A stretch of DNA of 64,000 nucleotides. Origin: Vicugna vicugna. Lineage: Eukaryota. Below are positions 11,095 through 62,419 of the stretch, piece after piece. The position numbers and the translations under genes are program-made. The notes under the pieces are model-generated. The model had not been told where the DNA came from. It did not search any database and was given only the letters and a program-made list of their open reading frames with translations. Position 1 is the first letter of the stretch. Every line of letters starts with the position of its first letter. The stretch spans positions 1,116,001-1,180,000 of the forward strand of contig MU058221.1 in the NCBI GenBank assembly GCA_013265495.1. The letters run 5' to 3'.

Positions 11095-12608
11095 TCTGTG
11101 TGTGTGTGTGTTTGTGCGTACTTGGTGTGAGGGAGTGTTCTAACTTCACTGATTTACATGCTGCTGTCCGGTTTTCCCAACACCATTTGCTAAAGAGACT
11201 GTCTTTACTCCATTGTATGTTCTTCCCTCCTTTGTCAAAGATTAATTGACCAAAAGTTCGTGGGTTCATTTCTGGGCTCTCTGTTCTGTTCCACTGATCC
11301 ATAGGTCTGTTTCTGTACCAATACCATGCTGTTTCAATGACTGTAGCTCTGCAGTATTGTCTGAAGTCTGGGAGGGTTATTCCTCCAGCCTCTTTCCTTT
11401 TTTTCAGTAATGTTATGGAAATTCTGGATATTTTGTGATTCCATATAAATTTTAGGATGATTTGTTTTGGTTCTGTGAAAAATGTCCTGGGTAATATGAT
11501 AGGGGTCACATTAAATCTGTAGATTGCTTTGGGCCATGGGGGCATTTTATCAATATTAATGTTTGCAATCCAAGAGCATGGGATATCTTTCTATTTCTTT
11601 AAGTCATCTCTAATTTCCTTAGTGAATGTTTCGTAGTTCTCATATAAGTCTTTCACTTCCTTGGTCAGATGTATTCCTAAGTATTTTATTTTCTTGGATG
11701 CAGTTGTAAAAAGGATTGTTCCTTGGTTTTCCTTTTCTGATATTTCATTGTTAGTGTAAAGAAATGCCGGTCATGTCTGTATGTTACTCTTGTATCCTGC
11801 GACCTTGCCAAATTCTTTCATTAGCTCTAGCGCTTTTGCGTGGAGCCTTTAGGGTTCTCTATATATAGTATCACGTCGTCCACATATAGTGACAGTTTTA
11901 CCTCTTCTCTTTCAATTTGGATCCCTTTTATTTCTATTTGCTGTTTAGTTGCTGTGGCTAGGACCTCCAATACAATATGGAATAGAAGTGGTGAGAGTGG
12001 GCAGCCTTGTCTTGTCCCAGATTTTATTGGGAAGGCTTCCATCTTTTCACTGTTGTGTGCTATGCTGGCTGTAGGTTTGTCATCTATAGCTTTTATTATG
12101 TTGAGATATGTTCCCTCTATACCACTTTGACAAGAGTTTTTATCATAAATGGATGTTGAATTTTATCAAATGCTTTTCTGCATCTTTTGAAATGACCGTG
12201 TGGTTTTTGTCTTTTCTCCTGTTGATGTGATGTAGCACGTTGATCAATTTGCAGATATTGAACCATCCTTGTGTCCCTGGGATGAACCCCGCTTGATCAT
12301 GGTGTATGATCCTTTTCACATGTTGCTGGATTCTGGTGGCTAATGTTTTGTTGAAGATTCTTGCATCTATGTTTGTCAACAATATTGGCTTATAGCTTCC
12401 TTTTTTCATAGTGTCTTTGCCTGCCTTTGGTTTCAGGGTGATGGTGGCTTCATAGAATGAGTTTGGGAGTGTTCCCCTCTCTTCAGTCTTTTGGAAGATT
12501 CTGAGAAGGATTGATACGAGCTCTTCTTTGTATGTTTGATAGAATTCCCCCATGAAGCCATCTGGTCCTGGACTTTTGTTTGCAGGGAGGTTTTTTATTG
12601 CTGATTCT
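11095..12608 (-). mobile_element. Younger L1 ORF2 internal fragment (reverse transcriptase region), disrupted
   Basis: ORFs 12143..12682 ([39 protein letters not shown]), 11827..12042 ([28 protein letters not shown]) and 11057..11545 ([35 protein letters not shown]). Confidence 0.95.
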
Positions 12609-12844
12609 TGAGGTTTTTCCTTTTTATTCTTTTTTTTAAAACTCTTCCTATTTTTAGTTGCATCATTTCTACTTAAGCACAATATATAACATTTGAAATA
12701 TAGTCCTCCACTTTCATCCCTAACTTTGTTTTAGTCTACTATGTCTATGTACTTTAAAAATACTTGTTATCATCTTTTAAAAGTTCAATAATTTTGATGA
12801 AGTATCAAGTCATTATTTGGTTGGATAAAGCTCATACTCTTGTA

Positions 12845-12966
12845 CAGGTTTAAGAGTCTATAAATTCAGACCAAGTTTGGTCCTCTGGCTTTTTGTAAAT
12901 AAAGCTTTATTGCAACATAGGCACAGTCATTCATTTATATATTATCTATAGCATCTTTCACATAAC
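12845..12966 (+). mobile_element. MER58-like hAT-Charlie MITE, 5' half
   Basis: 'ttttgtaaataaagctttattgcaacataggcacagtcattcatttatatattatctatagcatctttc' matches the recalled MER58A consensus; it stops where the MULE relic begins. Confidence 0.75.
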
Positions 12967-14660
12967 CAGTGGACATTTGGTCTATTGAGACATTTAGTCC
13001 ACACCAAAAAGGTCCTTGAAATTTGGTCCTATTAAAACACGGTGATCATATTTCTCTATGCCTAATGATCCTCGATATTTGGTCCTATCAAAAATGTCCA
13101 CCCTTAGAAATGTCTCTGGATTCAAATAGCCTGTAACATTTATTTACAATTTTGGTTTACAGGATTAATACATAGAAATACCATCAACATTTATTGGTCA
13201 GATCACTGTGTTGTGGCTACAATGCCAATAATAACCCTACACCTACTTGTCAGTTTGCATGGACCAACGCTCCCTCCGCTCGTGCCCACCTACTGGCTGC
13301 TGCAGGCTGGCCAAACTGGGCATCAAAGCCACAAGATACTGGTAAGGTTTCCGCTACCAAAAAGCTGGTGACCGCTGGTCAGGCAGCAGCAGCAGCAACA
13401 ACAAAGTCGCCCTTCTGCTGATTGGCAATATGGTATCTCTGTTTGAACATTCCTAGTGGGATGTCTCAGAAACAGTAGACTCACAAAAGGAAAAGCCAAC
13501 GCTCTATTGCAACGTTTTTTGTTACCATTTCCATTCCTTTAACAGAGATTGAAGTAGAAGGTACCAGTGCTGAGAAGAGAAGAGAATCAGGACTGTCTGA
13601 TGTACAACTAGTCTGGATTTGAATGACATTATGATCATTCAAGGTGGCGCCAGGAAAACGTCAGCACAACATTAGTGTTAAAGGGAACGCAAGGAAAACC
13701 CTGGAAAGGGTGAAACATCACAATAACAATAACCAAATGCAGCATCTTTACAGGTTTTTGAAGATGTTTCCATGATACTCATGATGAAGAGCTCCTAATG
13801 ATGCTAACAAGGAGAAGCTCATAAAAGAAACAAGTAAACAGAGTTTAAAACAGACATTGGCCTCCAGACCCAACTTAATTGCATGGAATTGAAATTCCAG
13901 AGGAGTATAAAGAGTATAAAGTGACCAGATGCAGAGAACCATTTCTTATGTACAATTCCAGGGGTCGAGATGGTGAAAGAATTCTTATTTATACAACTTT
14001 AAGACTGTAAGTATAAACATGATTCAACTACATCTAACAAACACACAAGCAAAAGGATGTCTTTTTCTCTTTTCGCAACCACCGGTAAAAAAATATCTTC
14101 TATGTGTCTAACAGCTGAGTACATGACAACAGACTGTGACACTTTCGAGTGGGCATCTGTGTTGTGTGGATTCCAATCTGTGCTTTTGGAAGACGTAAAT
14201 GAAATCATTGAGTACACTGTGGAGAGTGCAGGAGAATACTTAGATGAGCTAATGGATTATTTTGAGAAAGTGTATGCACCCGCGAAGCATGGCAAGGCAG
14301 AAGGAAACAGGCAGCGCCGAGATTTCCAGCAGCAAATTGGAATGTTACGCGTCACTACTGAGGATGCAGGATGGATGATGCAGCGGAGGCTGGCGTAGCG
14401 CGTTTCAAAAAACCACGTTGGTGCAGCATGCCTCAATCTGCAGATTTATTGATGTGTTAAAGGACCAATAGCAAATTGTTTGAACAAGTTATCCCCCGGG
14501 TTCTTGGTGGTCACACTGAAATATGGCAACCAATTTCATAGCAATATTCACAAAATTAACTTCTTATAACAGAAATTGTTAACACATACAATGAATATAG
14601 GGCCAGTCATAGGTGAGTATACACTTGAAAGTAATTGCTTGTCAAACGTTTATTTCTGAT
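12967..14660 (+). mobile_element. Mutator-like (MULE/MuDR) DNA transposon fossil, internally deleted, 3' terminus missing
   Basis: Terminal ATTTGGTCC repeats followed by a decayed transposase (see the pseudogene entry at 13461-14650). Confidence 0.85.
13461..14650 (+). pseudogene. Decayed FLYWCH-MULE transposase
   Basis: Manual translation. From 13469: ETVDSQKEKPTLYCNVFCYHFHSFNRD*SRRYQC (FLYWCH-like). From 13825: KKQVNRV*NRHWPPDPT*LHGIEIPEEYKEYKVTRCREPFLMYNSRGRDGERILIYTT. From ~14031: HLTNTQAKGCLFLFSQ (GCxFH/CxxH motif). ORF 14057..14398 includes VLLEDVNEIIEY...LDELMDYFEKVY. Then, across frameshifts: PRFPAANWNV, GWRSAFQK, HASICRFIDVLKDQ, ITEIVNTYNEYR. Confidence 0.85.
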
Positions 14661-15130
14661 GCTGAGTTCACTTTGTCTTCTTTGCATCCATTTTATTCCT
14701 GCATTACAATTACTATTTTGTTTTATGTACCTTGGATTTTTGTGTTTGGTTTTTGTTTGTTGAATTTCTGACTGACGGTCATTTTTCACACTCAAATATA
14801 TCTGAATATATTAATTCTGTTCGGAATATAGATTACAGTTTTCTCCTGCTTCGTGGCTATTTTTCCTTGTTTTAGTTTCCCAGCTTTTCTGCAATTCATC
14901 TCTATGGTCTTTGCTTTGGTTAATTTTTATTATATAAAAGGTGCTTTACATGGTTCCTAGTTTAATACTACACTGTTCTGTCTTTTTAGCAAAGTCCCAG
15001 TTCTGTGTGTGTGTGGTTGTTATTTTCATCTGGCATTGGCTTTGTTTTAGCTCGAAGTCCCCTAAACTTCCCTGTTGCTCTTTCTCCGATAGCTAACCAC
15101 CGTGGGGCACATCTTCCTCCCCTTCGGATT
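14660..15130 (-). mobile_element. Old L1 fragment (probable continuation of the host L1ME)
   Basis: T-rich, L1-antisense-like composition; no diagnostic motif. Confidence 0.35.
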
Positions 15131-18100
15131 TTCTGTCTCCTCCAGAACTTATGGGTGAAGATTAAGCCCTTTAGATTGGGCTTGTCCTTTCAATGTCGCT
15201 TGCTTCCCTAAGTAGAACCTGCCCCTTTATGTCGCAAGTCCGGCAGGTTTTACGACGTCTGTCCCTTTAGGGACTGCACGCTTTGAAATAGCTTCTCTGT
15301 AGTTCGTATTCTGATAATCTTTATTACTTATACTATTTTTAGGATTGTTGTGTGTTAGATGGAATTAACCTTCCTAGTTATTGCAGCTCACTCTCGAGCC
15401 CCTTTAGTGCCCCAGCACCACGTATTTCTCACATTTTTTCCTTCTTTGGCCACTAAGTTCTGTGGCGCGGGGGGTGAGGGGTTGTTGGGAGAATGTGACA
15501 ACTTGGCATCGGTATTTACTTTGCCCTTTTTTCCCCTCATAGTTTTTGGTACCTTCAACATTCTCTGTTTGCAGGTCATGCCGAAGGTGTGGAAGCGCAT
15601 AACATTTTTGTTAAAGTGAGGTCATGTCATGGCCTTGGGGGAGACAACTTGGAGAAGCATTTTTTCTCTGCTGTCTGTAAGGAGCGCTTTCTTAATGAAC
15701 ACCCTCAGAATTGGGAGTTACATTCGTTGCCTTATATTCTCTTTAAAACTCCTAAAATAATTAGAAGCTTAATTGCCCTTGCTTCAGCCACTGTTTCTAA
15801 AACACAGAGCCTAAGCAGTAATTGAGTTTTAAAATATTCCCGTGGAATGTTAACGCTGAGCAGGGCAAGGCCATCGCGGATTCACTTGATATTAAAAACA
15901 ACCCTTTTCAGAATATCATTTACTTATATTTTCACGAAGAAATGACCATCATAATATTCCTTAGAAAATTCTTCTTTCACAGACGACACTTGTCCTTTTC
16001 TTTATTCCTCAAAGGCAACATAAATACAGGTGTCAAGCTCGCTCATGAAATTGTAAATTTAGTGATATAAAATGACAAATCATTCCCTAGAAACCTTGAA
16101 CTTCTCATCAAGAGGATATTCAAGATAAGAAAAAAAAAATAGGTTTCTTTCAGGAAGCAGATCCGAAGGACATTTTCCAAGTAACACTTTTTTTTAAGAG
16201 ATGCAATCCCAGAGAGGACAGATGGAGGGAAAAAGGGGAATGTGAGGACTGAGGGGAGTGAAGAAGGGAAACACAGACAACGCATCGTAGACGGAGCACA
16301 GTTCTTAGGAAAATTAGTGACTCATGGTTCATCCGAGACATAGGAATACAGCCCTTGCTTCTCCTAACGGGCGAGGGCGAGGGCAAGCTGCTTTTCTGTT
16401 GCTCCCTCCTGTCTCCTGCTTTTCGATGGCACCTCTGCGTATGTTATCTGGCCCCTCCAGGTGGCTTGGAAAAGCCAGAGTTTTGCTGATTCTAATTTCA
16501 CTGGACATGAGTTCAAGATCTCTTTCTCCTGCTGCTTCTCTTGTTTCTGTTTGAAGCAAGATGAATGAATGGTGTGGCCGCTCACTAGTGACACCCTCGT
16601 GCGGAGTCACACCAACAGAAGCCTGGGTTCTGTGACCTTGAGAATGACATGAACCATCCCTGAGGAATCCACAGCTCGGCAGCAAGGCAAGTAGCCTGGA
16701 CCCAGAAGGCACATGGGAAACTGAGCCACGAGACCGAGCTTATCTGGGGCAACGCCTGATGGAGCCCTGTTTGCCAACATGTGCCAATTTGTATGTCTTG
16801 ACCTATAATTTAATGAAAGATGTGATATATAATAACCCTCTTTTAATATTCTATTGCTTTGGGCTTTGCAATGTGTAATTGATTTTGTTTTTCAGTTAAG
16901 ATATAAAATGCAATTCTTTCTTAATCAGGCGTGGGGAGACGCAATGAAACAATAATTGCATTTTCTTTCCTCATCCTAGTTAGAAAACACGGATAACTAA
17001 AGATTGCTATTTCATTTTTATAGACCAAGATCAGGGGTTTTTAAAATCTTTTATTACAATTTTAAAAATTTATCGATTATTTTATTTCAATGTGTAAAGA
17101 AAGAAGAATTTCACTTTTATTTTAGCAATAATTTCCCTTTGAACGCCAGAACAAGACGCTGAGCAGATGGTTATGTCCCTTTATAGAGCCATTGAGCGAT
17201 TTTACTTAGTGTCTTCTTCAATCGGAAACGCATTAACTCAACACACACTGATAATTTTGGAGCAGTTTTTGTTTCTCTCTTATTTTCATATTTATCTTTA
17301 AACTTGGTATAGACTGACCTTTCCCCCTGCATAACATAGAGTGTTATCAAATTAAAATTGAGCATGAATGGAAAAAAATGAATTCTATAACCATCCTTTT
17401 TTGATGGTGGGCAATTCCCCTCATGCAGTACTCCAGATATTGTGGAAATTAAAAATATCCCCTTCAACAAGCCCTCGATATTGAAACCAGAACACTGTCT
17501 AGCCTTAAGGGGCACTGATTGGTGAGAAAGAAATGTGTGTGATGATATCATTTGATCAGAAGATGAAGGAAGCAGGGCAAATTCTTTGTACTTTGGTTTA
17601 TATAACAGACAGACATAACAGGAAAACCTTTAGGATGAGTATAAATTTCAATGAAAATAATAATTGCATAATTCTCAGTACAAGAAATCAGTAAGTTCCG
17701 AAGAAGATGAAGCTTGGGAAACCTTTGAAAAATAGAAAAATGGAATAAAATCTAAGATTAAGAAGTTCAAGAAATCTGAATGCAGTATATAAGGATAATG
17801 GTCATTAAAAATTATTAGTACTGCTTTTATGTGTATACTTTGAGGAAAAGCAGAGAGCATAGGAGGTACTCAATCATACCCTGGATGCATTTTAATGCAT
17901 AAATAAATGAAATGAATTACCTTGAGTTCCTGCAGTCACTTCTCCATCCTATGAGTAGAGATGGAGGAAGAAAACATAAAAATGGTTAGGATCTGTTCCT
18001 ACAGTTTAAAGATATAACCAACTTTCTTTTAGTGATGTCCTGCCATTTTCAGATTTCTTTCATGTTCCCTGTAGTGGTTAAAATTACAAGATTCTTATCT

Positions 18101-24125: not shown

Positions 24126-24278
24126 GCACATGTTTTGCCTTTTTTGTTTGTTTGTTTTTATGAGGGGCAGGTAATTAGGTTTATTTATTTATTTAATTAG
24201 GAGGAGGTCCTGGGGATTGAACCCAGGACCTTGTGCATGCTAAGCATATGCTCTACTACCTGAGCTATACCCTCCTCC
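24126..24278 (-). mobile_element. tRNA-derived SINE (camelid-type) with 18-bp target-site duplication
   Basis: Minus strand reads GGAGGAGGGTATAGCTCAGGTAGTAGAGC...GGTCCTGGGTTCAATCCCC (Pol III A and B boxes) plus an A-rich tail. Identical TATAAAATTATTTTTAAA lies at 24108-24125 and 24279-24296. Confidence 0.92.
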
Positions 24279-27546: not shown

Positions 27547-28349
27547 AAATGATATGATCATCTCAAGAAATAAAGCAAACACGTTTGACAAAATACAACA
27601 TTCATTTATGATGAAACTTCTCAAAAAATTGTGTGTAAGAGAAATGAAATATACCTCAACATATTAAGTCATACATAGCAAGCCTAGGGCTAACATTATA
27701 CTCAATGGTAAAGAAAGCTTTTCCTCTAAGATCAGGAAAAAGACAAAGGGCGCCAAGTGTCACCATTTTAACTCAACATCTTACTTGAAATCTTAGAGCA
27801 GTCAGGCAAGAAGAAGACGTGAAAGACATACAGAAAGGACAAGCAAAACTGTCTCTCTTTGCTGATGATATAACATATATATAGAAAATCCTACAGATTC
27901 CACCAAAATACGTCAGAACCACTAATCAAATCTAGTAAAGGTACTGAATACAAAGCCACTATCCAAATATATTGCATTTCTACATACTTACAGTGAAATA
28001 TCTGAGAAAAATAAAATAAGAAATTCCACTTACAATAGCATTAAAAGCATTATAATTCTTAGCATAAATTTAACCAAGGAGGTGAGAACTCTGTACACTA
28101 TTAAATACAGGACTGTGATAAAAGTAATTGAGGAAGACACAAGTAAGTGGAAAGATATTCCATGTTCATGAATTAGAAAACATCGATATTATTAAAATAC
28201 TCATACTACACTAAGCCATCTCTAAATTCGATTCAATCTAAAGTACAATTCCAATGACATTTTTCACAGAAATTAAGAAAGAAAATTTTAAAATTTATAT
28301 GGACTCACTAAAAACCCTGAGTAGTCAAAGGAATCCTCAAAAGGAAAAT

Positions 28350-40400: not shown

Positions 40401-40529
40401 TATAAGCTTACTTTACCCGACAAATTACCATCAACCAACAAACACCATCAGAGTAAGGAGCTGGTCTTCTTAAATATTTCCAAATCGTCCTAATTCAGCA
40501 CTCAACCTAGGTGGGGAATTCTATACAAC

Positions 40530-40689
40530 TTGTCATTTCCTTGGTTACTCTTCAGAATGAATGTATTTCCATAAGACATCTGTTTATTCATAATCCTTCT
40601 CTTAGTGTTCCTTAGTAATTGTATCTCCTTTATTAAACATTTTTACCCACGCATTTTTGTTACAGTATTAACCTTCTGCGGGTATATAG
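40530..40689 (+). repeat. ~160-bp direct repeat, copy 1
   Basis: About 95% identical to 43268-43426 by manual alignment. Confidence 0.95.
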
Positions 40690-43233: not shown

Positions 43234-43267
43234 GTCAATGCAATTAGAACACGATTCACATTTTAAA

Positions 43268-43426
43268 TTGCCATTTCCTTGATTACCCTTCAGAATGAAT
43301 GTACTTCCATAAGACATCTGTTTATTCATAATCCTTCTTTTAGTGTTCCTTAGTAATTGTATCTCCTTTATTAAACATTTTTACCCACGCATTTTTTGTT
43401 AGTATTAACCTTCTGCAGGTATATAG
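43268..43426 (+). repeat. ~160-bp direct repeat, copy 2
   Basis: About 95% identical to 40530-40689. Confidence 0.95.
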
Positions 43427-45998: not shown

Positions 45999-46547
45999 TG
46001 TTGCAGAAAAAGGGGGCACAAGAGGGTGGTCCCGTCCCAGGTCTCAGGCGAGCCCCTGGGGTGGAAGGGGCCTGCCAAGTGAGGGTCCTTGGCTTTGAGG
46101 AGGAAAGGATTCAAGAGTGAGCCGCAGTGAAGTGAAAGCAAGATTGTTTAGAGAAATAAACATTCTATAGACAGAATACAGTCCTGTCTCAGAAGGAGGG
46201 GTGGCCCCCGGGTGTGGAGTGGCCAGTCTTGTGGGCGGGGTGACTTCACAGGCTAACAAGTGGGAGGATTACTCCAGCTGTTTTGGGGAGGGGGTGGGGG
46301 CTTCTAGGAACTGGGCCCCTGCCTCCTTTTTGGCATTTTATGGCCACCTGGGAACTGTCATGGCACCTGTGGCTACGCCCTTTATCCCGCGAGTGCCTTA
46401 CAAGGAGCCTACAGTGAGGCTCAGAGTCAACTGGATGTTGAATCTTCTGCCAGACTGGGCCTAGCTGGTTCTAACCCATTTATGTCCTATCCTCAATGTT
46501 TGTGTCATTCTTTCAATGGCTGCCCCCATCCCCTTCCTTCCCGTCTC
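45999..46547 (-). mobile_element. Solo LTR (ERV1-like), copy A
   Basis: Begins 'tgttgcagaaaaagggg', contains 'ggattcaagagtgagcc...gtgaaagcaagattgttt' (antisense polyA region) and ends 'cccgtctc'. Confidence 0.8.
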
Positions 46548-46667: not shown

Positions 46668-47163
46668 TGATACAGGAAAATGGGGCATGGGAGGATGGCC
46701 ATGTCCCAGGTCCCCACTGAGTTCCTGGGATGTGCCCTGCCAAGAGAGAGTCCTCGGCTTCAAGCAGGAAAAAATTCAAGAGTGAACCCTAATAGGGTGA
46801 AAGTAAATTTAGAGAGGTGCACACTCCACAGACAGAGTGCGGGCCGTCTCCAAAGGCAGGAGAGAGAGCGACCATGAGGTGCAGGGCAGTTAGGTTTTAT
46901 GGGCTCAGTAACTTCATGTGCTAACAAACAGGAGGATTATTCTAACTATTCTGGGGAAGGGGCTGGGATGCCCAGGAATTGGGCCGTCTCCCACTTTGTG
47001 ACATTTTATGATCAGCCTCAGAATTGTCATGGCGCCTGTGGGCGTGTCATTTACCATGTTGATAAATTACAATGAGCATATAATGAAGCTCAAGGCCATC
47101 TTGGTGCTAATTGCTGTGTCATTCTTTTAATAGTTGTGCCCTGCCCCCCGCCCTCCTGTCTCG
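46668..47163 (-). mobile_element. Solo LTR (ERV1-like), copy B, related to copy A
   Basis: Begins 'tgatacaggaaaatgggg' and shares blocks with copy A (ttcaagagtga, gctaacaa..ggaggatta, tgtgtcattcttt). Ends 'cctgtctcg'. Flanks are tgtaaa and tgtaga. Confidence 0.8.
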
Positions 47164-62123: not shown

Positions 62124-62266
62124 GGGGAAGGGTATAGCTCAAGCGGCAGAGCGCATGCTCAGCACACAAGAGATCCTGGGTTCAATCCCAGGTACCTTCT
62201 CCAAGCGGAAATCAATGAAGAAACCTGATTACCTCCCTGTGATAAAACAGACACTGCAAACAAAAC
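62124..62266 (+). mobile_element. tRNA-derived SINE (camelid-type)
   Basis: GGGGAAGGGTATAGCTCAAGCGGCAGAGC...TCCTGGGTTCAATCCC; 8-bp TSD AGTTGCTG at 62116-62123 and 62267-62274. Confidence 0.92.
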
Positions 62267-62419
62267 AGTTGCTGATGGAGTCAGTATGTAGTTATAAGGC
62301 CAAAATGTGTACAGGATCATCAGATAAATGGGTGAGCATGTTAAAAATGTCATCCCATTATGCGCATTTTATTCGCTTTTATACACGTGTGCTAGACACG
62401 AGGTGTCCTGCAAGACAAG

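What the first reader, a model, noticed from the sequence alone, without database searches (positions are those of the whole stretch)
12967..14660. Fossil FLYWCH-Mutator (MULE) transposon that appears not to be Ricksha
Seen in sequence: stitching frames gives an ordered series of motifs, of which the ORF track shows only one piece. They are SQKEKPTLYCNVFCYH..RRYQC; IPEEYK..EPFLMYNSRGRDGERILIYTT; KGCLFLFSQ; LLEDVNEIIEY..LDELMDYFEKVY; PRFPAANWNV; DDAAE/GWRSAFQK; HASICRFIDVLKDQ. Established knowledge: this order matches animal MULE transposases (FLYWCH finger, FLxxDSGxxxxRILIF, GCxFH, FPxxxWN, RTNNxxEGWH with the catalytic E, HPxIWxFIxxLK). The segment with the first catalytic aspartates (DGTF...D) is deleted between ~14000 and 14030. 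Inference: MULEs are rare in mammals, where Ricksha is the known eutherian family. As I recall it, Ricksha has AATCCC-type terminal repeats and a different protein sequence, so this may be a separate, little-described MULE invasion of the camelid or laurasiatherian germline.
Basis: partly seen in the sequence, partly recalled or inferred. Interest (0 to 1): 0.85.

Follow-up and report, generated by a model that had tools for sequence, protein, structure and literature searches.

The report
Mammalian Mutator fossil resembling whipworm transposase
This is a broken, long-dead copy of a Mutator-type jumping gene with many decayed sister copies in this mammal's genome, and the closest intact enzymes found belong to whipworms, gut parasites of mammals, so it likely entered mammals by an ancient jump between species.

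Summary
Confirmed. Window 13460-14666 (+) is a decayed FLYWCH-MULE transposase gene. A frameshift-aware alignment to an intact Trichuris suis protein (KFD61048.1) gives 169 of 388 identical residues, score 517 against 32-46 for 20 shuffles. It has 9 stops, 9 frameshifts and an 82-codon deletion at 13998 that removes both catalytic aspartates. Four runs from four organism labels each hold 26-33 matching contigs, mostly under 90% alike, and one contig carries the left end inverted, which points to terminal inverted repeats. This copy has no right end or target-site duplication. Related fragments pooled by plurality are 69% identical to the whipworm protein (136 of 198 columns), too close for inheritance since the nematode-mammal split, so horizontal transfer is likely; direction and donor are unresolved. 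Decay of about 0.2-0.3 substitutions per site suggests an invasion older than camelids. 'Not Ricksha' rests on recall: no Ricksha, Dfam or Repbase sequence was available. Ten literature searches found no description, but the 2010 horse 'Phantom' report could not be read. The scan noted a matching whipworm-related fossil on other genomes (five earlier findings).

The parts
12967..13110 (+). Left end region with three imperfect 45-56-nt repeat units (core ATTTGGTC at 12974, 13021, 13077) and a 10-nt perfect inverted pair (12969-12978 / 13092-13101); likely part of a repeat-containing TIR, outermost base not defined
   Evidence: (D5); sister contigs loop back between these units and one carries 12988-13030 inverted beyond the 3' coding part (table 5)
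13111..13462 (+). 5' leader between the left end and the coding start
   Evidence: sister contigs join pieces at 13150-13238 to left-end and coding pieces; 13250-13481 had no cover in any of 4 runs, so its membership is inferred from position
13463..13667 (+). Decayed FLYWCH zinc finger (the W and three of four predicted zinc ligands changed; 3 stops, 1 frameshift)
   Evidence: Pfam FLYWCH E 0.0094, below cut-off; related fragments P0003, P0004 and P0012 hit FLYWCH at E 4.9e-7, 5.1e-4 and 9e-4
13668..13998 (+). Linker and start of the catalytic domain up to RILIYTT; includes a local 9-nt tandem duplication at 13903-13920
   Evidence: sister copies lack 9 nt there (table 4)
13998..14005 (+). 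Junction of an internal deletion of about 246 nt (82 codons) that removed both catalytic aspartates; the 5-mer at 14001-14005 also begins the letters with which sister copies run on, a possible microhomology
   Evidence: (table 7); microhomology read by eye
13998..14078 (+). Segment after the second aspartate, gap-free in register, with the CxxH motif (C kept, H changed to L)
14081..14346 (+). Helical insertion domain ending in FPxxxWN (W at 14338-14340)
   Evidence: phmmer hits P0006-P0009, P0011, P0013, P0014
14368..14411 (+). Catalytic glutamate motif; E kept at 14386-14388, frameshift right after it
14412..14666 (+). C-terminal helices, aligned to residue 511 of 516 of the whipworm protein; no right TIR or target-site duplication found beyond
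12846..12966 (.). Left flank (not part of the element): about half of a MER58-type hAT miniature transposon, name recalled
   Evidence: sequence read by eye; no tool test
11830..12730 (-). Left flank (not part of the element): reverse-transcriptase remnant of a LINE (LINE-1 by recall)
   Evidence: Pfam RVT_1 E 7.6e-12 and 1.6e-9

Best explanation
This is a dead, internally deleted copy of a Mutator-type (FLYWCH-MULE, Phantom-like) DNA transposon from an old multi-copy family, whose closest intact relatives found are whipworm proteins, and which likely reached a mammalian ancestor by horizontal transfer. How it would have worked (established MULE biology, inferred here): one transposase of about 480 residues bound repeat units in long terminal inverted repeats through its N-terminal finger region, cut the element out with a D-D-E active site and pasted it elsewhere, leaving 8-11-bp duplications. 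What happened to this copy: an internal deletion removed both aspartates (shown), possibly during gap repair at a 5-nt microhomology (inferred); the right end was lost (shown as absent; cause unknown); it then decayed neutrally (9 stops, 9 frameshifts; shown) for roughly 80-130 million years (inferred, with a recalled rate of 2.2-2.5e-9 per site per year). It has no present function that I could detect. The family is probably distinct from Ricksha (recall only).
For: Alignment over 476 of 516 residues' span of T. suis KFD61048.1 at 43.6% identity, far above nulls. That protein has Pfam FLYWCH and MULE above cut-off and D228, D294 and E418. An unbiased phmmer of one window frame against 1.84 billion proteins gave 14 hits; the best and only full-length one is a Trichuris trichiura FLYWCH-MULE protein, E 1.6e-16. 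A profile search returned 6 proteins: 4 Trichuris, 1 unnamed intact transposase at 36% to the window, 1 unnamed fragment. The plurality of 12 fragments plus the window is 136/198 identical to KFD61048.1, against 109/207 to the unnamed intact protein. Window and N-terminal fragments form one clade, support 97/95. P0005 and P0024 match the window at 56-57% in a wrong reading frame and match no intact protein, which shows DNA-level kinship. Sister copies and an inverted left end in all 4 runs laid. The same locus is present in 4 of 4 runs with 0-5 differences in 762 nt, so it is host DNA. Whipworm proteins cannot be host contamination of this family, because they are open and come from three T. 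suis assemblies and T. trichiura while the mammalian copies seen are broken.
Against: No right TIR or TSD at this locus. No Pfam hit above cut-off from the window itself. The two word-based protein searches that gave hits scored only about 8000 candidates each and missed the many arthropod FLYWCH-MULE clusters that the Atlas shows exist, so a closer non-whipworm relative may be hidden. At 69% the whipworm protein is a cousin, not the donor. The best tree puts the fossil outside all Trichuris sequences (85/82) and AU tests reject none of 3 placements. In the C-terminal block the fossil clade is weak (50/40). The hosts of the unnamed fragments are unknown. The window is only 92/168 identical to the leave-one-out plurality, more decayed than most fragments. 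No Ricksha, Dfam or Repbase comparison and no DNA-level dS test were possible.
Confidence: 0.75

Rival explanations
1. The family is a real MULE fossil but is already catalogued: a Ricksha-related subfamily, the horse 'Phantom' element of Marquez and Pritham 2010, or an uncurated Dfam family. Only the whipworm link would be new.
For: A horse Phantom MULE was reported in 2010 (as described in PMC6446971 section 6). The estimated age means other placental mammals should share the family. Repeat libraries could not be searched.
Against: Repbase listed only 3 placental MuDR entries in 2019, all Ricksha (PMC6446971; PMC5753468 passages). Dupeyron et al. could not detect a MULE transposase in the horse sequence. 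No AATCCC or GGGATT in the element (motif recalled). My recall of the Ricksha proteins differs.
Confidence: 0.4
2. Mammals and whipworms each received related elements from a third, unsampled donor (an arthropod or other invertebrate), with no direct host-parasite jump.
For: About 0.47 substitutions per site separate the family plurality from KFD61048.1, and the fossil falls outside the Trichuris group in the best tree. Arthropod clusters with the same domains are common. An unnamed intact relative exists (P0030).
Against: Nothing closer than whipworm proteins appeared in three searches with hits. Whipworms live in mammalian gut tissue (established knowledge). Nematode-mammal transfer has a precedent (PMC6542046).
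Confidence: 0.4
3. Transfer ran from mammals to whipworms: the element invaded mammals first, and whipworms picked it up from the host and kept it, later recruiting one copy as a gene.
For: The fossil family branches outside all Trichuris sequences in the best tree (85/82).
Against: Trichuris holds both an intact-site protein and a diverged pair without the first aspartate motif shared by two species (69% identical to each other, 46-52% to KFD61048.1), which implies long residence in worms. AU tests do not separate the placements.
Confidence: 0.12
4. Vertical inheritance from the bilaterian ancestor, or a decayed host gene derived from a MULE.
For: Mammals have MULE- and FLYWCH-related host genes (recalled). 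Transposase cores are conserved.
Against: Dozens of dispersed, decayed copies with inverted ends. 69% identity over finger and C-terminal regions is too high for a transposase after more than 550 million years (split date recalled). No introns, and no sign of selection.
Confidence: 0.03

Closest known systems
Trichuris suis FLYWCH-MULE proteins KFD61048.1 / KFD50635.1 (also KHJ40540.1)
   Same: Same domain order and colinear over the whole length; 43.6% to this copy, 69% to the family plurality.
   Different: Open reading frame with D-D-E intact; lacks 9 residues before FPPxTW that the fossil fragments and the other relatives keep. Its ends and copy number were not seen. Annotated only as hypothetical or FLYWCH-type.
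Trichuris suis KHJ48013.1 and T. trichiura CDW58273.1
   Same: FLYWCH + MULE; 34% and 32% to this copy, 57% and 52% to the plurality.
   Different: First aspartate motif degenerate in both, catalytic E replaced in CDW58273.1; likely a recruited worm gene (inference).
Phantom group of MULEs (Marquez and Pritham 2010, not held, not read; described in passages of PMC3169594 and as group 20 in PMC6446971), including Tm1 of root-knot nematodes
   Same: N-terminal FLYWCH plus MULE domain, one ORF of about 480-500 residues, TIRs with internal repeat units.
   Different: Phantom is defined as a clade of invertebrate and ichnovirus elements; placement in that clade was not tested. The repeat unit here is about 45-56 nt against 13-15 nt in Tm1. 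A mammalian host is unusual.
Ricksha / Ricksha_0 / Ricksha_a (Repbase MuDR of placental mammals; PMC5753468 passages)
   Same: Old, dead Mutator-class elements in placental genomes.
   Different: By recall, different end repeats and a distant protein; no sequence was available to test. Dupeyron et al. doubted their MULE identity, whereas this family aligns clearly.
RTE1_Sar (shrew and strongylid nematodes) and AviRTE (birds and parasitic nematodes), PMC6542046 abstract and passages
   Same: A transposon shared by a vertebrate host lineage and parasitic nematodes.
   Different: Those are retrotransposons; RTE1_Sar consensus sequences are 80% identical at DNA level. This is a cut-and-paste element, a different nematode group and a more distant match.

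Membership tests
Mutator superfamily (MULE) | DDE transposase with the MULE domain | tested here: met
   Colinear with proteins that pass Pfam PF10551; E kept at 14386-14388. Both D are deleted in this copy, so the window itself has no PF10551 hit.
Mutator superfamily (MULE) | CxxH motif after the second D and the conserved W of FPxxxWN (motifs recalled) | tested here: met
   C at 14058-14060 kept, H changed to L; W at 14338-14340 kept.
Mutator superfamily (MULE) | Terminal inverted repeats, often long (PMC6446971 section 3) | tested here: inconclusive
   No right TIR in the window: best inverted match downstream scored 47, mean 32.7, sd 5.9 over all tiles, and 30-31 next to the element. One sister contig in each of 4 runs has the left-end sequence on the opposite strand beyond the 3' coding part.
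Mutator superfamily (MULE) | 8-11-bp target-site duplication | tested here: inconclusive
   9-10-mers left of 12960-12975 recur downstream at several places with one mismatch, none next to an inverted end. With the right end gone no TSD can be called.
Mutator superfamily (MULE) | Dispersed multiple copies | tested here: met
   26-33 contigs per run at 80% likeness or more, 16-20 of them under 90%. Contigs are not a copy count.
Phantom group | N-terminal FLYWCH finger plus MULE domain in one ORF | tested here: met
Phantom group | TIRs simple or with internal repeats | tested here: inconclusive
   A 12-nt exact direct repeat in the left end is reached by 2 of 2000 shuffles but by 7 of 453 window tiles. 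Sister contigs loop back between units. True terminus not seen.
Phantom group | Placement in group 20 of the Dupeyron tree | not testable with these tools
   The two FASTA supplements cannot be read; no reference Phantom protein could be fetched. 'Trichuris' does not occur in the 3 readable supplements.
Ricksha | DNA identity to the Ricksha consensus sequences | not testable with these tools
   No Dfam or Repbase; 'Ricksha' absent from the 3 readable supplements.
   0 AATCCC or GGGATT within 12967-14666; the motif itself comes from no call.
Host-parasite horizontal transfer | Similarity higher than vertical descent allows, patchy range, contamination excluded | tested here: inconclusive
   69% protein identity and host-DNA status are met; dS against host genes and taxon range could not be tested.

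The most novel reading that the evidence does not exclude
An undescribed Mutator family, separate from Ricksha, jumped between the whipworm lineage and early placental mammals about 100 million years ago, amplified in the host germline and died there, while whipworms kept an intact-site transposase and recruited a second copy as a gene. It would be the first DNA-transposon transfer between parasitic nematodes and mammals that my searches could find, clear proof of MULEs in vertebrates, and a molecular date for the whipworm-mammal association.
Probability: 0.3. Interest if true: 0.72.

Novelty: new member of a known kind. Interest (0 to 1): 0.52.

Why it matters
The 2019 survey of 1631 MULEs found only limited evidence for MULEs in chordates and judged the vertebrate entries, Ricksha included, likely mis-identified (PMC6446971, section 6). 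This locus shows a full-length, colinear MULE transposase fossil in a mammal, which makes that open question directly testable. Its closeness to whipworm proteins suggests a new host-parasite transfer of a cut-and-paste element; the nematode cases in the paper I read are retrotransposons. The locus itself is inert DNA, and the mechanism is a known one.

Tried and rejected
Pfam on six single frames: no MULE or FLYWCH. Word-based protein search with one frame: 0 of 390 candidates. No whole genome held, so no copy count or empty-site test. Viral contigs: 0 loci from 64, 4 and 48 pattern matches. Prokaryote genomes: 0 of 28. Metagenome contigs: 2 loci of 136 matches, both rejected as GC-rich, bacterial-looking DNA with scores 39-49, at null level. 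PDB sequence search: none. AlphaFold model of the unnamed intact relative from a 5-row alignment: mean pLDDT 41.8, not used and not sent to fold search. Left end as a DNA hairpin: z -1.45, 15 of 200 shuffles as good; its 10-nt inverted pair is reached by 17 of 2000 shuffles but by 11 of 453 window tiles, so it is weak alone. A TSD candidate at 12952-12962 / 14780-14790 (10 of 11) was rejected: similar words recur and no inverted end adjoins it. The idea that the MULE split the MER58-type element was not kept, because the other half was not seen by eye downstream and a deletion explains the junction as well. The gap in contig cover at 13250-13481 and 13656-13713 is not used as evidence. Rfam found only two tRNA-like SINE heads. 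Pfam on 44 stretches (41 of 86 open stretches of 85 codons or more, and three frames of 14680-15400) found no host gene, only RVT_1 twice. Direction of transfer: AU test p 0.19-0.86 and 0.29-0.71 for three placements. P0010 was left out of the plurality because it looks like another lineage (41/96 to it). Searches of earlier findings by sequence, relatives and near place gave nothing.

Full report
Observation. Only one lies in a long open stretch (14003-14395). Single frames gave no MULE or FLYWCH Pfam hit (0 of 6), and a word-based search with one frame found nothing among 390 candidates. A full phmmer scan of frame 2 (13469-14386, stops as X) against 1.84 billion proteins gave 14 hits. The best, and the only full-length one, is CDW58273.1, a FLYWCH and MULE domain protein of Trichuris trichiura (E 1.6e-16). 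The other 13 are unnamed fragments of 64-175 residues.

Closest intact relatives. A search with that protein gave one further hit, T. suis KHJ48013.1. A profile of 14 rows gave 6 proteins: four from Trichuris, one unnamed intact transposase (P0030) and one unnamed fragment. T. suis KFD61048.1 (P0029) keeps D228, D294 and E418 and passes both Pfam cut-offs. A frameshift-aware alignment of the window to it runs from residue 36 to 511 and from 13460 to 14666, with 169 of 388 identical residues and score 517. Twenty shuffles scored 32-46 and 20 scans of other window stretches 31-43. The other intact proteins gave 43% (KFD50635.1, KHJ40540.1), 36% (P0030), 34% (KHJ48013.1) and 32% (CDW58273.1).

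Damage in this copy. There are 9 stops and 9 frameshifts, and residues 213-294 are missing at 13998. This removes both catalytic aspartates and most of the Pfam MULE domain. The 21 codons after the junction are in exact register up to the CxxH motif. The catalytic E survives at 14386-14388. In the finger, the W and three of four predicted zinc ligands are changed.

Family evidence. Eighteen public runs under five coded organism labels hold 83-95% of the sampled words (18 of 24 listed, 6 studies). I laid 4 of them on 12960-14680 at 80% likeness. Each gave 26-33 contigs, 2 at 99% or more and 16-20 under 90%. The same locus (13919-14680) differs by 0, 3, 3 and 5 letters in 762, so the insertion is older than those organisms' split. 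Sister copies lack 9 nt at 13903, so the EYK-EYK repeat is a local duplication. They run on at 13999 with other letters that read by eye as the in-frame start of the deleted segment; their first five letters recur at 14001-14005, a possible microhomology. In all 4 runs one contig joins 14527 to 13030 on opposite strands, as expected if the left-end sequence recurs inverted at the right end. Other contigs loop back from 13030, 13032 and 13097 to 12981-12986, which fits repeated units in the ends. Contigs are not a copy count, and these are lower bounds.

Ends. The left end has three imperfect units with the core ATTTGGTC. A 12-nt exact repeat there is reached by 2 of 2000 shuffles but by 7 of 453 window tiles. 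No inverted copy of the left end lies downstream in the window, and no TSD could be called. The left flank is, by recall, half of a MER58-type element, preceded by a LINE remnant (RVT_1). No host gene was found among 44 stretches scanned.

How close is the family to the worm protein? I aligned one fragment from each of 12 clusters plus the window read-through (X at breaks). Fragment limits were set against P0030, not the whipworm protein. P0010 was aligned but left out of the count. The plurality is identical to KFD61048.1 at 136 of 198 columns (69%), to KHJ48013.1 at 117 of 207, to P0030 at 109 of 207 and to CDW58273.1 at 107 of 207. Without the window it is 119 of 170. The hosts of the fragments are unknown. 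Two of them match the window at 56-57% in a wrong frame and match no intact protein, so those at least are the same DNA family. In trees the window and N-terminal fragments form a clade (97/95); the C-terminal block is weak (50/40). With P0030 as the only outgroup the best tree puts the fossil outside all Trichuris sequences (85/82), but AU tests reject none of three placements. So donor and direction are open.

Age. In a neutral-decay simulation 9 stops in 388 codons fit about 0.2 substitutions per site (0.1 to at least 0.35 lie within the 5-95% ranges), and 55-58% identity to the plurality fits 0.27-0.3, an upper bound because the plurality is noisy. At a recalled rate of 2.2-2.5e-9 per site per year this is roughly 80-130 million years, older than camelids. 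The range among mammals was not measured.

Mechanism. By established MULE biology (PMC6446971 section 3) the element was a cut-and-paste transposon: one transposase with a zinc finger and a D-D-E site acts on long terminal inverted repeats and leaves 8-11-bp duplications. Shown here: the domain order, the E, the sister copies, an inverted end in a sister copy, and the decay. Inferred: binding of the finger region to the end repeats, the TSD length, gap repair as the cause of the deletion, and horizontal entry. Horizontal entry is inferred because 69% identity is too high for a transposase after more than 550 million years (date recalled). Contamination is unlikely both ways: the locus is host DNA in four organisms, and the worm proteins are open and come from three T. 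suis assemblies and a second species.

Against this reading. The word-based searches scored only about 8000 candidates and did not return the arthropod FLYWCH-MULE clusters that the Atlas lists at feature scores 0.97-0.98, so a closer relative may be hidden. No DNA of the worm element was available. Viral, prokaryote and metagenome scans gave no true relative. The structure model was too poor to use.

What is known. PMC6446971 (passages, section 3, first part of section 6, and a term search of 3 readable supplements) found limited evidence for chordate MULEs, lists 3 placental Repbase MuDR entries (Ricksha) and doubts them, and notes a horse Phantom element reported in 2010 in which it could find no transposase. 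Its two FASTA supplements could not be read and may bear on the Ricksha and Phantom comparisons. PMC5753468 (passages) lists only Ricksha, Ricksha_0 and Ricksha_a as human MuDR. PMC3169594 (passages) describes Phantom and Tm1. PMC4350176 (passages) names human MuDR as a transfer candidate. PMC6542046 (abstract and passages) gives the retrotransposon precedents. Marquez and Pritham 2010 is not held and was not read. Ten searches (listings only unless named above) found no paper on a whipworm-related MULE in mammals; subscription papers, Dfam and Repbase were out of reach. That the family is not Ricksha rests on recall and on the absence of the recalled AATCCC motif.

Earlier notes of this scan. 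I reached the Trichuris link and stated it. Searches then showed five notes on other genomes with the same reading (e1-8044956, e1-8091863, e1-9278789, e1-8091236, e1-9380399; the last reports both TIRs on a 2553-letter copy) and two on a second MULE family with crustacean relatives (e1-9810172, e1-9233084). I did not compare their DNA with this locus, and they are not independent support. They gave me the lead to PMC3169594. A note on this genome (e1-9039632) names a camel SINE, in line with my recall of the SINE here.

Verdict. A real, dead MULE copy of a family that I could not find in print, with whipworm proteins as nearest intact relatives: a new member of a known kind. Identity as a MULE fossil is near certain (about 0.98). 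Horizontal entry is likely (about 0.85), distinctness from Ricksha probable (about 0.8, recall), absence from repeat libraries about even, and a direct whipworm-mammal jump about 0.45. Interest 0.52.

Noticed in passing
P0028 (KHJ48013.1), P0001 (CDW58273.1): A pair of Trichuris FLYWCH-MULE proteins, 69% identical between two species, with a degenerate first aspartate motif: a candidate recruited transposase gene in whipworms.
   Followed up: partly
P0030 (unnamed, 515 aa, contig 2055 nt): Intact FLYWCH-MULE transposase of unknown host, 44% to KFD61048.1; has a 23-residue insert that may be an unspliced intron.
   Followed up: partly
P0010 (unnamed, JGI/IMG, 147 aa): FLYWCH-like fragment, 48% to KFD61048.1 and 43% to the mammalian plurality: possibly a third lineage of this clade.
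   Followed up: partly
window 24139-24275 (-) and 62129-62268 (+): Two tRNA-Ala-like SINE copies, 74% alike; by recall the camelid SINE, which is the basis for calling the host a likely camelid.
   Followed up: partly
window 12846-12966: Half of a MER58-type element abuts the transposon's left end; the other half was not seen, so a deletion may have trimmed both.
   Followed up: partly
window 14700-15500: T-rich right flank that looks by eye like an old antisense LINE-1 fragment; no Pfam hit in three minus frames of 14680-15400. Part of it could be the element's 3' end.
   Followed up: partly
window 40527-40689 / 43265-43426: A 164-nt direct duplicate, 94% identical, 2.7 kb apart.
   Followed up: no
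window 46004-46372 / 46673-47041: A 370-nt direct repeat, 69% identical, 669 nt apart.
   Followed up: no
window 11423-12195 / 27558-28320: Two opposite-strand LINE remnants, 65% alike.
   Followed up: no
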